From: a virus
IMG/VR virus record: IMGVR_UViG_3300042934_000861
Coordinates: 1 to 64,000 of that record
Direction: 5' to 3' (one strand)
DNA: 64,000 nucleotides
Below, in pieces: positions 37,771-39,909 of this stretch. Position 1 is the first letter of the stretch, and the number at the start of each line of letters is the position of its first letter. The notes below the pieces were generated by a model. It was not told where the DNA came from and made no database searches. It saw nothing but the letters and a program-made list of their open reading frames with translations. The position numbers and the translations under genes are program-made.

Positions 37771-37995
37771 CTATTGCTGGGGTTCTTCTACGTCCGGCAC
37801 ATATTCCAATAGGTCCCCTGCTGAACACTTAAATAGTTTACAGAGAGAGTCCAATGTGCCGAAATTGATAGCTTTTACCTTATCGTGGTATAGGAATGCC
37901 ACGGTATTTCTAGCGAGTCCTGTCTCGTCGCAAACATCTTGAATGTTCATTTTGTACATTCCCATATATGTAGATAAATTGCATTTTATTGCCAT
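37771..37995 (-). CDS. XRE/HTH_26 regulator divergent from small-gene cassette (Aca-like position)
   Basis: NLSTYMG...DVCDETGLARNTV...TLDSLCKLFKCSAGDLLEY; AGGAGG RBS. Confidence 0.85.
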   Translation of the reverse strand: MAIKCNLSTYMGMYKMNIQDVCDETGLARNTVAFLYHDKVKAINFGTLDSLCKLFKCSAGDLLEYVPDVEEPQQ

Positions 37996-38071
37996 GATTA
38001 TCCCTCCTGCCAATATAATAACAAACCGAACTAAAATAATCAAGTTTTTAATCATTTTAATTGATGTCCTA

Positions 38072-38137
38072 TTGACAATGTGAATAGACTTCGCTATATT
38101 ATAGTTAAGGAGTTAATCATATTGATTATGTGATTAA
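38072..38137 (+). promoter_or_regulatory. Strong sigmaA promoter with downstream inverted repeat
   Basis: TTGACA-N17-TATATT (38072-38100); TTAATCAT...GTGATTAA (38113-38137). Confidence 0.8.
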
Positions 38138-38156: not shown

Positions 38157-38546
38157 ATGGCAAACTATAAACTTAATGTTTTGATTGAGGCGGTAAACGA
38201 ATATTTTTATGCTGAGCAAGAACTAAAAATCTTTCTGAAAACTTGGGTCCCTGGCTGGTGGGAAAGTAAAACCGCTAAAGAGCGTGAGGATTATACGAAA
38301 TATACTGAGCGCAGCCAGGAAAAATACAACACAGTAAACATGCTTTGCAAATTAATAAACATTGATATGAAGGATCTGTTCTCAATAATAAAATGCATGA
38401 ACCGTTACGAACGACTAACAAAATGGGAAAAGTGTCTCCACATCTCTCATCTCATTGACGAAAACGTCAGGCGTTTTTTAGCAATTAGTGATGAATTGGA
38501 ACATTATTACAAAAGCACAGGGCGCAGAAGAATGTACGCAGAGTGA
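38157..38546 (+). CDS. Hypothetical protein, first of cassette
   Basis: GGAGG RBS; stop codon lies inside ribozyme. Confidence 0.75.
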   Translation: MANYKLNVLIEAVNEYFYAEQELKIFLKTWVPGWWESKTAKEREDYTKYTERSQEKYNTVNMLCKLINIDMKDLFSIIKCMNRYERLTKWEKCLHISHLIDENVRRFLAISDELEHYYKSTGRRRMYAE

Positions 38547-38597
38547 GCCAGGTTAACCCCTGGCCTAATGCTGGCAGGCAGACGGTCACAACCACCG
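38538..38597 (+). ncRNA. Twister self-cleaving ribozyme (P5-type permutation)
   Basis: P2 GCA/UGC, GA, T1 GUGA/UCAC, P1 GCCAGG/CCUGGC, C-U^AA cleavage loop, T2 (U)GG/CC(A), P4 CGG/CCG. Confidence 0.75.
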
Positions 38598-38622
38598 ATA
38601 GCCAGATAAAAGGAGTGATACG

Positions 38623-38796
38623 ATGAAAAAGCAATATTGCCCATATTGCGGGGCGCACCTTAACGAAAGATGTGGTTGCGAACGTGAATTGGCAGAAGCG
38701 GAAGCAGAATGGATTGAGGAATACGAAAACAGGCCAGACACGCAAGCAAGGGAACATTTCAACGATATACTTGAAATGTGGAGGAATGAGAGGTAA
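38623..38796 (+). CDS. 57-aa Cys-containing acidic ORF (not in track)
   Basis: MKKQYCPYCGAHLNERCGCERELAE...; AGGAG RBS. Confidence 0.75.
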   Translation: MKKQYCPYCGAHLNERCGCERELAEAEAEWIEEYENRPDTQAREHFNDILEMWRNER

Positions 38797-38834
38797 TTAC
38801 AGTCCTGATAGCCAGAATATACGGAGGTAATAAA

Positions 38835-39107
38835 ATGAGAAGAGGAAACACATCAAGGTATGATAATAACAACGCCACTTTAGAAGAGGAAATTGAGCGC
38901 CGAAAATACATGCTCTCAGCTTTAAGGGCAGACGAAAACCCTGATGGCTCTAAGCCTTATGCTCTTGCATATGGGTTTGTCGATAACCAAGGGCGCAAGA
39001 AACTTTTAAGACGTTGCCCTGTTTTTCCCACATTCACAAGCTTTGACCGGTATATAAGGAGGCATAAGCAAACGGTTCTCGCTGTATACAATCTTAACGC
39101 AGAGTAA
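38835..39107 (+). CDS. Hypothetical basic protein
   Basis: GGAGG RBS. Confidence 0.72.
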   Translation: MRRGNTSRYDNNNATLEEEIERRKYMLSALRADENPDGSKPYALAYGFVDNQGRKKLLRRCPVFPTFTSFDRYIRRHKQTVLAVYNLNAE

Positions 39108-39133
39108 CGGCATTCGGTAAGGAGGATTTTACA

Positions 39134-39331
39134 ATGGCAATGACAGTTAACGGCGTATCTACAACTAAGGATTTAGGCCAGGAGCAATACGAAAAATTCC
39201 GCAATTCAGCTAATAAAAAAACATATGTAGCCTACGACTACCGGCACACTAACGGCAACCTATTTAGCTGTGTACGCCCTGCCTTGGAGGCTTGCCGAGC
39301 AGAGCGCGACAAGTGGATTACTAAACAATAA
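39134..39331 (+). CDS. DUF3873-like small protein
   Basis: MTVNGVST...GQEQYEKF...YDYRHT.G.LFSCV.P.LE.CR..RDKW. Confidence 0.75.
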   Translation: MAMTVNGVSTTKDLGQEQYEKFRNSANKKTYVAYDYRHTNGNLFSCVRPALEACRAERDKWITKQ

Positions 39332-39353
39332 CGCAATTAAAGGGGGATTTGAA

Positions 39354-39629
39354 ATGGACTTACCAGTATATGAAAAAATCGGTCAAATAACAGAGGATGA
39401 GTTTAAAAAGCTACAGTTTAGCACGAGACAACAAGCTATGCTTAAAAAATTTATGGGATTATCAGCCAAGGATAAGTACCAATTAGGGGACACTACGATA
39501 GTTATTAAAGATGCTGAATTATACGGGCTATACAAATATGACCACAAAGGACGCAACATTTACTACTTAATAGCAAATATAATTGATGATCACATGGCCT
39601 TTTCCTGGAATCTATACCCAGTTAATTAA
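39354..39629 (+). CDS. Hypothetical protein
   Basis: AGGGGG RBS. Confidence 0.7.
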   Translation: MDLPVYEKIGQITEDEFKKLQFSTRQQAMLKKFMGLSAKDKYQLGDTTIVIKDAELYGLYKYDHKGRNIYYLIANIIDDHMAFSWNLYPVN

Positions 39630-39652
39630 CTTGCCTACAAGGAGGAACTAAC

Positions 39653-39844
39653 ATGCGTAAGATAACACGGAAATATAAAGGATGGACAATTAAGCAGGAT
39701 TTGGAATGCAGCGGCGACGGTATCAGTCACGACGTTTACCGTTGCTATACGCCGGATGAAATGGAATATCCGGCTAACATGAGATCATCTGAATGGGATG
39801 CTGGCAGTATGCAAGAGGCTGAGGTTTTTATTGATAGCTATTAG
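39653..39844 (+). CDS. Small acidic hypothetical protein
   Basis: AGGAGG RBS; YKGWTI...EAEVFID. Confidence 0.72.
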   Translation: MRKITRKYKGWTIKQDLECSGDGISHDVYRCYTPDEMEYPANMRSSEWDAGSMQEAEVFIDSY

Positions 39845-39872: not shown

Positions 39873-39909
39873 TGTCGCCTAACTAGTGTTGGGCGGCATT
39901 TTTTATTTT
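39873..39909 (+). terminator. Rho-independent terminator closing the cassette
   Basis: TGTCGCCTAAC-TAGT-GTTGGGCGGCA then T-run. Confidence 0.85.

What the first reader, a model, noticed from the sequence alone, without database searches (positions are those of the whole stretch)
38538..38597. Twister ribozyme overlapping a stop codon within the cassette
Seen: all twister elements in permuted order: GCA-GA-GUGA, P1 GCCAGG/CCUGGC, C-U^A-A-UGC, UGG, CGG-UCAC-AA-CCA-CCG; one extra A versus the consensus I recall. The T1 strand GUGA contains the upstream UGA stop; predicted cut 38566/38567. Inference: processes the polycistronic mRNA, and a terminating ribosome could gate folding.
Basis: partly seen in the sequence, partly recalled or inferred. 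Interest (0 to 1): 0.72.

Follow-up and report, generated by a model that had tools for sequence, protein, structure and literature searches.

The report
Twister ribozyme between two phage genes
A small self-cutting RNA of a well-known class (twister) fills the gap between two genes of a phage operon and shares three bases with the first gene's stop codon, a layout that recurs in many phages but whose purpose is still untested.

Summary
Window 38537-38603 (+) is a type-P5 twister. Rfam RF02684 scores 34.3 bits, just under its 37.6 cut-off, with E=0.0021 for the whole window, and it is the only family with E<=1. P1, P2 and P4 and both pseudoknots are present: T1 GUGA/UCAC and T2 UGG/CCA. The nearest relatives sit beside unrelated genes; one passes the Rfam cut-off at 42.7 bits.

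The UGA inside T1 is the stop of the upstream gene (38157-38546). This arrangement is recurrent. Of 129 viral type-P5 twisters with an upstream gene, 98 have the stop within -10..+7 nt of the ribozyme start, and 21 use the T1 UGA.

Cleavage at U38566/A38567 and mRNA processing are inferred from homology. Ribosome gating is plausible but untested, and no RNA run holds this phage.

Verdict: a new member of a known kind, with a longer T2 and an interrupted P4. This scan has already noted twisters at phage gene junctions in many other genomes.

The parts
38537..38603 (+). Whole twister ribozyme, type P5 order: P2a, T1a, P1 hairpin, cleavage loop, P2b, T2a, P4 hairpin with outer extension
   Evidence: Rfam RF02684 at 38537-38598, 34.3 bits. 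Leave-out sub-family model R2 at 38535-38607, 68.5 bits.
38538..38540 (+). P2 5' strand GCA, pairs with UGC 38569-38571
   Evidence: Invariant in all 38 sub-family sequences, but fixed by my extraction pattern, so uninformative there.
38543..38546 (+). T1 pseudoknot 5' strand GUGA, pairs with UCAC 38586-38589; it contains the stop codon UGA 38544-38546 of the upstream gene
   Evidence: The middle T1 pair is a standard pair in 128 of 130 unique viral motif hits, with four pair types (U-A 81, G-C 33, A-U 7, C-G 6).
38547..38564 (+). P1 hairpin: GCCAGG 38547-52, loop 38553-58, CCUGGC 38559-64
   Evidence: In the sub-family, 5 of 5 P1 pairs show changes on both sides and 98.9% of cells are paired. 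Relatives with the same 3' half carry entirely different P1 stems.
38566..38567 (+). Predicted scissile U-A step; cleavage would leave a 2',3'-cyclic phosphate on U38566 and a 5'-OH on A38567
   Evidence: By alignment to the UAAUGC block of RF02684 and by passages of PMC5408937 on the U-A cleavage site. Not measured.
38569..38571 (+). P2 3' strand UGC
38572..38574 (+).
   Evidence: All 3 T2 pairs covary in the 38-sequence alignment: column pair 44-66 is GC 23, AU 9, UA 3, GU 1, other 2; column pair 46-64 is UA 16, CG 11, AU 4, UG 4, GC 3.
38577..38579 (+). Outer part of P4: GGC pairs with GCC 38601-38603 across a 3x3 internal loop (AGA 38580-82 / AUA 38598-600)
   Evidence: Recovered by the energy fold. 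Columns 50-74 are GC 35 and UA 3; columns 48-76 are GC 8, CG 7, UG 5, GU 1, other 17, and ours is among the unpaired. Moderate support.
38583..38597 (+). P4 (CGG 38583-85 / CCG 38595-97) with its 9-nt loop L4, UCAC-AA-CCA, at 38586-94
38157..38546 (+). Upstream gene A (129 aa from the ATG; function unknown), first gene of the operon; it ends ...MYAE-stop and its last three codons are ribozyme nucleotides
   Evidence: No Pfam or PHROG family. Ten homologues at 47-72% identity.
38610..38625 (+). Ribosome-binding site AAGGAG 38610-15 and ATG 38623 of gene B (38623-38796, 57 aa)
   Evidence: In relatives a same-strand ORF starts 20-39 nt after the CAA of L4 in 56 of the 102 motifs that have such an ORF within 150 nt; 140 motifs were examined.
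38072..38100 (+). Promoter-like site TTGACA-17-TATATT (11 of 12) ahead of gene A, next to a divergent Cro/C1-type HTH gene (37771-38055, minus strand)
   Evidence: a consensus match only; 8 sites found against 7.2 expected. HTH_26, E 1.5e-17.
39873..39908 (+). Terminator-like hairpin plus T-run that closes the six-gene unit

Best explanation
Window 38537-38603 is a genuine type-P5 twister self-cleaving ribozyme in a temperate phage genome of 81.7 kb with direct terminal repeats. It fills the whole spacer between the first gene of a small six-gene operon (gene A, 38157-38546) and the second gene (gene B, 38623-38796). Shown: the sequence and secondary-structure match, both pseudoknots, covariation in relatives, the stop-codon overlap, and the family-wide placement between a stop codon and a ribosome-binding site. 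Inferred: once transcribed, the RNA folds and cuts itself between U38566 and A38567. The upstream piece would keep gene A with its intact UGA stop plus 20 nt, and would end two nt after the P1 hairpin with a 2',3'-cyclic phosphate. The downstream piece would start with a 5'-OH and a 56-nt leader holding the P4 hairpin, and would carry genes B to F. This would uncouple the fate (stability or translation) of the first cistron from the other five. Because the cut lies 3' of the stop codon, no stop-less mRNA is produced.
For: - Independent model: Rfam RF02684 is the only family with E<=1 in the 64-kb window. It matches full length, at 34.3 bits and E 0.0021.
- Conserved positions: in the alignment, every upper-case consensus position is matched except two. 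Those two pair with each other in T2 and have changed together (consensus G-C, ours C-G).
- Pseudoknots: T1 (4 of 4) and T2 (3 of 3) are complementary, and the model does not score them.
- Relatives pass the cut-off: 19 of 21 sub-family copies in 19 loci reach the Rfam cut-off at 39.1-52.7 bits. The closest relative, L149, scores 42.7 bits.
- Covariation: on 38 sequences, 97.5% of cells are paired against 83.4% in shuffles, and 0 of 500 shuffles reach the observed value. Slid controls give 31-40%.
- Leave-out model: model R2, built without ours, L127 and L149, scores ours at 68.5 bits.
- Unrelated neighbours: relatives that share the 3' half letter for letter have different P1 stems and no detectable protein similarity in the flanking genes.
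- Placement: 98 of 129 viral motifs have the upstream stop at -10..+7, against 75 of 644 at random positions.
- Operon: a promoter-like site and a terminator-like hairpin bracket the unit.
- Literature passages: the U-A cleavage site and the P1/P2/P4 plus T1/T2 architecture (PMC5408937); processing of polycistronic mRNAs suggested and an association with phage genes (PMC6765202; PMC10085705).
Against: - The score is below Rfam's gathering threshold (34.3 against 37.6; one search lists nothing).
- The base of P1 is an A38546/C38565 mismatch in the Rfam alignment, and the outermost modelled P2 and P4 pairs are also mismatched.
- The energy fold alone is not significant (z -1.58).
- There is no RNA evidence of any kind. 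The only two runs that hold the phage are DNA, so cleavage, its position and any effect on expression are all inferred.
- The sub-family alignment was collected with patterns taken from this very sequence. Its invariant P2, P4 and T1 columns therefore say nothing, and the R2 score is inflated.
- The same operon holds what look like two decayed copies, so decay does occur here.
Confidence: 0.8

Rival explanations
1. Translation-gated ribozyme (the reader's extension; it adds to the main reading rather than excluding it). A ribosome that finishes gene A sits on the P2a and T1 strands and the 5' strand of P1, so the ribozyme can fold only when the stop codon is free. The amount of cleavage would then report how heavily gene A is translated.
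For: The stop codon UGA 38544-46 lies inside T1. The arrangement is recurrent: among motifs with GAGTGA and an upstream open frame of at least 60 codons, 21 of 30 are in the frame that ends at that UGA, where one third is expected (binomial p 4e-5). In 98 of 129 motifs the stop lies at -10..+7, so a terminating ribosome would cover the 5' strands; ribosome footprint size is general knowledge and was not tested here.
Against: Simple compaction of phage genomes predicts the same crowding. Most relatives (46 of 129 at -2 to -4) merely abut the ribozyme rather than overlap it. There are no kinetic or expression data. Twisters are reported to be fast cleavers (recalled, not checked here), so cleavage may simply occur between ribosome passages.
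Confidence: 0.2
2. Inactive relic: a homologue of twisters that no longer cleaves and persists only because its 5' end encodes the last codons of gene A and its 3' end adjoins the ribosome-binding site.
For: The score is sub-threshold. There are mismatches at the P1 base and at the outer P2 and P4 pairs. Decayed copies exist nearby and in L144, which has no Rfam hit and 36.6 bits with R2.
Against: All conserved core positions, a 6-bp P1 and both pseudoknots are intact. The mismatched positions are the same variable ones in relatives that pass the cut-off. Real relics in this operon have lost nearly everything, which suggests that unused copies decay quickly.
Confidence: 0.1
3. Mobile junction module: the conserved ribozyme core serves mainly as a shared recombination point at which small genes are exchanged between phages. 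RNA cleavage would be secondary.
For: Near-identical cores lie next to unrelated genes. In a second soil metagenome, other contigs share only 38567-38615 and the summed depth rises from about 4.5 to 20-41 there. Head and tail remnants flank gene C. In L149 an unrelated 61-aa ORF ends in the same four residues as gene A.
Against: Covariation in P1, T1 and T2 shows selection on the RNA fold, not only on DNA identity. Sharing of a conserved functional element is expected anyway. No recombination junctions were mapped.
Confidence: 0.15
4. Chance resemblance or another kind of element, such as a terminator or a coding constraint.
For: The match is below the Rfam cut-off. An antisense ORF overlaps it (38485-38757, minus strand).
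Against: E is 0.0021 per window and 6.5e-7 per genome, and seven unscored pseudoknot pairs add to that. Homologues with compensatory changes exist. No T-run follows P1. The antisense ORF has no support beyond being open.
Confidence: 0.01

Closest known systems
Type-P5 twister ribozyme (Rfam RF02684; Roth et al. 2014, known to me only as cited in PMC6765202 and PMC10085705)
   Same: It has the same order of elements (P2a, T1a, P1 hairpin, UAA loop, P2b, T2a, P4 hairpin) and the same conserved blocks, GCAGAG, UAAUGC and GGUC-N-CAA. It has both pseudoknots and the U-A step next to P1. It sits among phage genes, as reported for bacterial twisters.
   Different: It scores 3.3 bits under the curated cut-off. 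T2 has three pairs because L4 is one nucleotide longer (A38594), and the fourth P2 pair is lost. P4 is interrupted by a 3x3 internal loop and continues as GGC/GCC. The T1 strand doubles as the stop codon of the upstream gene. The first two features define a sub-family of at least 38 distinct viral sequences.
Twister and other small ribozymes placed between genes of phage operons (arrays)
   Same: The ribozyme fills the spacer from stop codon to ribosome-binding site. Arrays of 2-5 copies occur in 18 of the fetched loci, and Pistol ribozymes occur nearby in L102, L138 and L151. Earlier notes of this scan report the same layout in other genomes.
   Different: Here there is a single intact copy, after the first gene of a six-gene unit, plus two short remnants.
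glmS ribozyme (mRNA destabilisation through a 5'-OH end; Collins et al. 2007, seen only as a reference entry in PMC6765202)
   Same: It is a self-cleaving RNA within an mRNA whose cut changes the fate of the downstream piece.
   Different: glmS is a different fold, is ligand-dependent and lies in a 5' UTR. No ligand dependence or stability effect is known or tested for this element.

Membership tests
Twister ribozyme, type P5 (RF02684) | Reaches Rfam's curated gathering score (an operational cut-off, not a structural feature) | tested here: not met
   34.3 bits against 37.6. The match is significant by E-value (0.0021 per window). Homologue L149 scores 42.7, and 19 of 21 sub-family copies pass.
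Twister ribozyme, type P5 (RF02684) | [quoted passage not shown] | tested here: met
   P1 has 6 bp, P2 3 bp and P4 3 bp plus an outer 3 bp. P1 covaries at 5 of 5 pairs.
Twister ribozyme, type P5 (RF02684) | Pseudoknot T1 between internal loop L1 and loop L4 | tested here: met
   GUGA 38543-46 pairs with UCAC 38586-89. The middle pair is a standard pair in 128 of 130 unique viral hits, with four pair types.
Twister ribozyme, type P5 (RF02684) | Pseudoknot T2 between the strand after P2 and loop L4 | tested here: met
   UGG 38572-74 pairs with CCA 38592-94. All 3 pairs covary in 38 sequences and 98.2% of cells are paired.
Twister ribozyme, type P5 (RF02684) | Highly conserved nucleotides of L1 and L4 and the adenine 3' of the scissile bond | tested here: met
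   All upper-case consensus letters are matched in the cmscan alignment except the two that form a T2 pair and changed together. The U-A step is at 38566/38567.
Twister ribozyme, type P5 (RF02684) | Circular permutation with the chain ends at the P5 position (P1 and P4 closed by loops) | tested here: met
   The order of elements is that of the type-P5 model, matched over positions 1-58 of 58. I saw no P5 helix between the leader and the tail (my reading; not scored).
Twister ribozyme, type P5 (RF02684) | Site-specific self-cleavage giving 2',3'-cyclic phosphate and 5'-OH ends | not testable with these tools
   No RNA run holds the phage. No biochemical data.

The most novel reading that the evidence does not exclude
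In phage type-P5 twisters, placing the upstream stop codon on or against the 5' strands of P2 and T1 is a selected coupling device. The terminating ribosome holds the ribozyme unfolded, so self-cleavage of the operon mRNA (and with it the fate of the downstream genes) depends on translation of the upstream gene. This element, where UGA is part of T1, would be the tightest form of that coupling.
Probability: 0.15. Interest if true: 0.7.

Novelty: new member of a known kind. Interest (0 to 1): 0.38.

Why it matters
The biological role of the thousands of bacterial and phage twister and hammerhead ribozymes is still described as unknown; processing of polycistronic mRNAs is only a suggestion (passages of PMC6765202).

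This copy by itself is ordinary. It does show that Rfam's cut-off misses real members of a viral sub-family with a three-pair T2 and an interrupted P4.

The survey made here gives a concrete and cheap test for that open question. In 98 of 129 viral type-P5 twisters the upstream stop lies within -10..+7 nt of the ribozyme start, and 31 of those physically overlap the core: 21 at the T1 UGA and 10 as UAG sharing the first G. A ribosome-binding site usually follows about 20-40 nt after loop L4. The test is whether translation termination controls cleavage, and what cleavage does to the two halves of the message.

I found no paper that describes the stop-codon overlap in the held library. The two most relevant papers (Roth 2014, Felletti 2017) were not held, and supplements are closed, so the overlap may already be in print.

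Tried and rejected
- Rfam at gathering threshold over the window: nothing.
- Other ribozymes in this genome: none at E<=1 in the window or in the remaining 18.7 kb (L166). My sub-family model, run with filters off, found no second copy. The next best score was 11.4 bits, E 0.36, and the remnants at 38797-38834 and 39098-39133 were not detected at E<=10.
It is possible in our sequence but not conserved: 47.9% of cells are paired and 484 of 500 shuffles do as well. Rejected as a family feature.
- A P5 helix between the leader and the tail: none seen by eye. Not scored.
- DNA similarity to deposited phages: no match. Gene A homologue P0007 run by tblastn against phages: no match.
- Relatives of gene A in viral contigs and genome contigs: none. 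I therefore could not test whether homologues of gene A are followed by a twister. I know only that 2 of 10 homologues end in MYAE and 3 more carry MYAE followed by three residues.
- Relatives of gene C: three weak partial hits that I did not pursue.
- Expression: no RNA holder listed. The laid runs are DNA contigs only.
- PHROGs and Pfam for the small neighbouring genes: no family for gene A or for five other small ORFs of the block.
- Literature: Roth 2014 and Felletti 2017 are not held. Supplements are closed and I did not ask for them.

Full report
**What is there.** The window is the first 64 kb of an 81,704-bp virus record with direct terminal repeats. The record carries an integrase, replication genes, a large terminase, a portal and tail genes, and also a sigma factor, an AAA ATPase and a MazG-like enzyme. 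It is a complete, probably temperate phage. The finding lies in a block of small genes of unknown function. A Cro/C1-type HTH gene sits on the minus strand at 37771-38055 (PF13443, E 1.5e-17). A promoter-like site follows at 38072-38100 on the plus strand (11 of 12). Next come six plus-strand ORFs from 38157 to 39844, and then a terminator-like hairpin with a T-run at 39873-39898. The element fills the 76-nt gap between the first ORF (gene A, stop TGA 38544-46) and the second (gene B, ATG 38623, AAGGAG at 38610-15).

**Checking the observation.** At gathering thresholds Rfam reports nothing in the window. With E-value reporting, Twister-P5 (RF02684) is the only one of 4227 families with E<=1. 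It matches 38537-38598 on the plus strand over the full model (positions 1-58 of 58), at 34.3 bits against a cut-off of 37.6. E is 0.0021 for the window, 1.2e-5 for a 351-nt search and 6.5e-7 per genome.

In that alignment the conserved blocks GCAGAG, UAAUGC and CGGUC-N-CAA are matched. Score is lost in four places: a mismatch at the base of P1 (A38546/C38565), the outermost modelled pairs of P2 and P4, inserts in the linker before P4, and one inserted A (38594). The model cannot score pseudoknots. T1 (GUGA 38543-46 with UCAC 38586-89) and T2 (UGG 38572-74 with CCA 38592-94) are fully complementary. The two upper-case consensus letters that ours does not match are partners in T2 and have changed together.

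The thermodynamic fold recovers P1, P2 and P4 and an outer helix GGC 38577-79 / GCC 38601-03. It is not significant alone (z -1.58, 18 of 200 shuffles as good).

**Relatives.** The variable middle pair of T1 is a standard pair in 128 of the 130: U-A 81 (as here), G-C 33, A-U 7, C-G 6 and U-G 1. The other two are not standard pairs.

A second scan used the P4/L4 region of our sequence with wildcards and found 47 stretches. From them I took 38 distinct full-length sequences, ours included, and aligned them. On that alignment 97.5% of cells pair, against 83.4% in shuffles; 0 of 500 shuffles reach the observed value, and slid controls give 31-40%.
- P1 changes on both sides at 5 of 5 pairs.
- T2 covaries at 3 of 3 pairs. 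The first T2 pair is G-C in 23 sequences, A-U in 9 and U-A in 3 (ours, L127 and L149).
In this sub-family L4 has nine nucleotides, T2 has three pairs, and the fourth P2 pair of the Rfam model is given up.
- The outer P4 helix gets moderate support: G-C 35 and U-A 3 at its middle pair, and G-C 8, C-G 7, U-G 5, G-U 1 and unpaired 17 at a fourth pair, where ours is unpaired.
- P2, P4 and most of T1 are invariant only because my patterns fixed them, so they carry no weight.

Of 21 sub-family copies in 19 loci, 19 pass the Rfam cut-off at 39.1-52.7 bits; L017 and L137 do not. The closest relatives of ours score 42.7 bits (L149) and 36.3 bits (L127). A model built from 35 sub-family sequences, without ours, L127 or L149, scores ours at 68.5 bits. 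That score is inflated, because the set was collected with a pattern taken from our 3' half.

A metagenome scan for our exact 3' half gave three further distinct members, L167, L168 and L170 (a fourth hit, L169, has the same motif context as L149). Their P1 stems are entirely different, for example CAGCCC/GGGCUG and CGGGGA/UCCCCG. BLASTP found no similarity between our flanking proteins and those next to the ribozymes of L127 and L149. The RNA is thus conserved independently of its neighbours.

In a second soil metagenome, other contigs share only 38567-38615, and summed contig depth rises there from about 4.5 to 20-41.

**The stop codon.** I asked whether the overlap is an accident. In the first scan, 118 of the 130 unique motifs have at least 400 nt upstream, and 58 of these carry GAGTGA. 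Of those 58, 30 have an upstream open frame of at least 60 codons that reaches the motif, and 21 of the 30 are in the frame that ends at the T1 UGA. One third is expected (binomial p 4e-5).

I then used all fetched loci from both scans, with our genome excluded. That gave 139 unique motifs with at least 300 nt on each side, and 129 of them have a same-strand ORF of at least 50 aa ending between -100 nt and the motif end. In 98 of the 129 the first base of the stop lies between -10 and +7 of the first G of GCAGAG. The counts are:

| Position of the stop's first base | Motifs |
|---|---|
| +7 (the T1 UGA) | 21 |
| -1 (always UAG, sharing that first G) | 10 |
| -2 | 8 |
| -3 | 23 |
| -4 | 15 |

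At random positions in the same loci the figure is 75 of 644. With our genome included (140 motifs), 102 have a same-strand ORF starting within 150 nt after L4, and 56 of these start 20-39 nt after the CAA; ours starts at +32.

Three caveats apply. ORFs were called mechanically. The motifs were made unique only by sequence, so related phages are counted several times. About a quarter of the set was collected by likeness to our element.

The conclusion is that phage type-P5 twisters typically occupy the entire spacer from stop codon to ribosome-binding site. Using the T1 UGA as the stop is a common variant of this arrangement and is not peculiar to this phage.

**How it most likely works.** This part is inference. 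Transcription from the promoter-like site would give a six-gene mRNA. When nucleotides 38537-38603 have emerged, the twister folds and cuts between U38566 and A38567, the U-A step next to P1 where twisters cleave (passages of PMC5408937).

The 5' product would keep gene A with its stop codon and would end two nt after the P1 hairpin. The 3' product would begin with a 5'-OH and would carry the P4 hairpin six nt upstream of the Shine-Dalgarno sequence of gene B. Because the type-P5 order puts the cut 20 nt downstream of T1, overlap with the stop codon costs nothing: no stop-less message arises.

The consequence for stability or translation of either half is unknown. A review states that such processing has only been suggested and that the reason for the association with phage genes is undetermined (PMC6765202; PMC10085705).

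It would apply to most of the family. Genome compaction explains the crowding equally well, and I could not test gating.

**Comparison and novelty.** This is a member of the known type-P5 twister class. It fails only Rfam's operational cut-off and meets all the structural criteria I could test; catalysis is untestable here. The sub-family traits (three-pair T2, P4 interrupted by a 3x3 loop) are small variations. Twisters between phage genes are known, and this scan has already noted such layouts in many other genomes: 133 notes in at least 103 genomes hold the search words.

I found no description of the stop-codon overlap statistic in the held library. Searches listed 20 of 50 and 15 of 28 papers, and I saw titles and the starts of abstracts only. 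Searches returned 1 and 5 papers. Roth 2014 and Felletti 2017 could not be read, and supplements are closed.

**Limits.** There are no RNA data. The host is unknown. The only runs holding the phage are labelled soil metagenome.

Noticed in passing
window 38807-38816 and 39098-39107: The exact 10-mer that ends the ribozyme (its tail, ahead of the ribosome-binding site) recurs once, 210 nt downstream, again just ahead of a ribosome-binding site. There are 2 exact copies, and 8 matches with up to one mismatch against 3.4 expected. The ribozyme's first ten letters recur with one purine change at the end of gene C, which also ends AE-stop: 2 matches against 0.10 expected, and 0 of 100 shuffles give 2. 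These look like remnants of two further twisters that have decayed. My model does not detect them.
   Followed up: partly
L144 3887-3955 (minus strand): A half-ribozyme: the 3' half (linker, P4, L4, tail) is almost identical to ours, but the 5' half (P2a, T1a, P1) is unrecognisable. It has no Rfam hit and scores 36.6 bits with model R2.
   Followed up: partly
L151 660-730 and 1606-1676; L138 5527-5593; L102 2659-2719: Pistol ribozymes (RF02679, 50-68 bits) lie within a few kb of sub-family twisters in three of the 19 viral loci scanned. Three loci (L135, L137, L138) also hold gut-2 RNA hits.
   Followed up: no
L149 4340-4525 (minus strand): The ORF upstream of the closest relative's twister (61 aa) shows no BLAST similarity to gene A, yet it ends with the same four residues (MYAE) and also uses the T1 UGA as its stop. 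The shared DNA therefore starts about six nt before the ribozyme.
   Followed up: partly
proteins P0003, P0005, P0006-P0008 (homologues of gene A): Five of ten homologues keep the C-terminal MYAE. Two of them end there, and three run on for three more residues, as if the frame continued into a P1 stem. Their DNA could not be fetched.
   Followed up: partly
window 38455-38480: A terminator-like hairpin followed by a T-run lies inside the coding sequence of gene A, about 65 nt before the ribozyme. Five such sites were found in 2.5 kb against 2.1 expected, so it may be chance.
   Followed up: no
L149 7661-7747 (minus strand): A partial group I intron match, cut off by the locus end (RF00028, 23.8 bits against a cut-off of 50, E 0.054).
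   Followed up: no
L045, L081 (5 copies each); L024, L034, L096, L154 (3 each); 12 further loci with 2: Arrays of type-P5 twister motifs; in L045 and L154 successive copies lie about 0.5-0.9 kb apart.
   Followed up: partly
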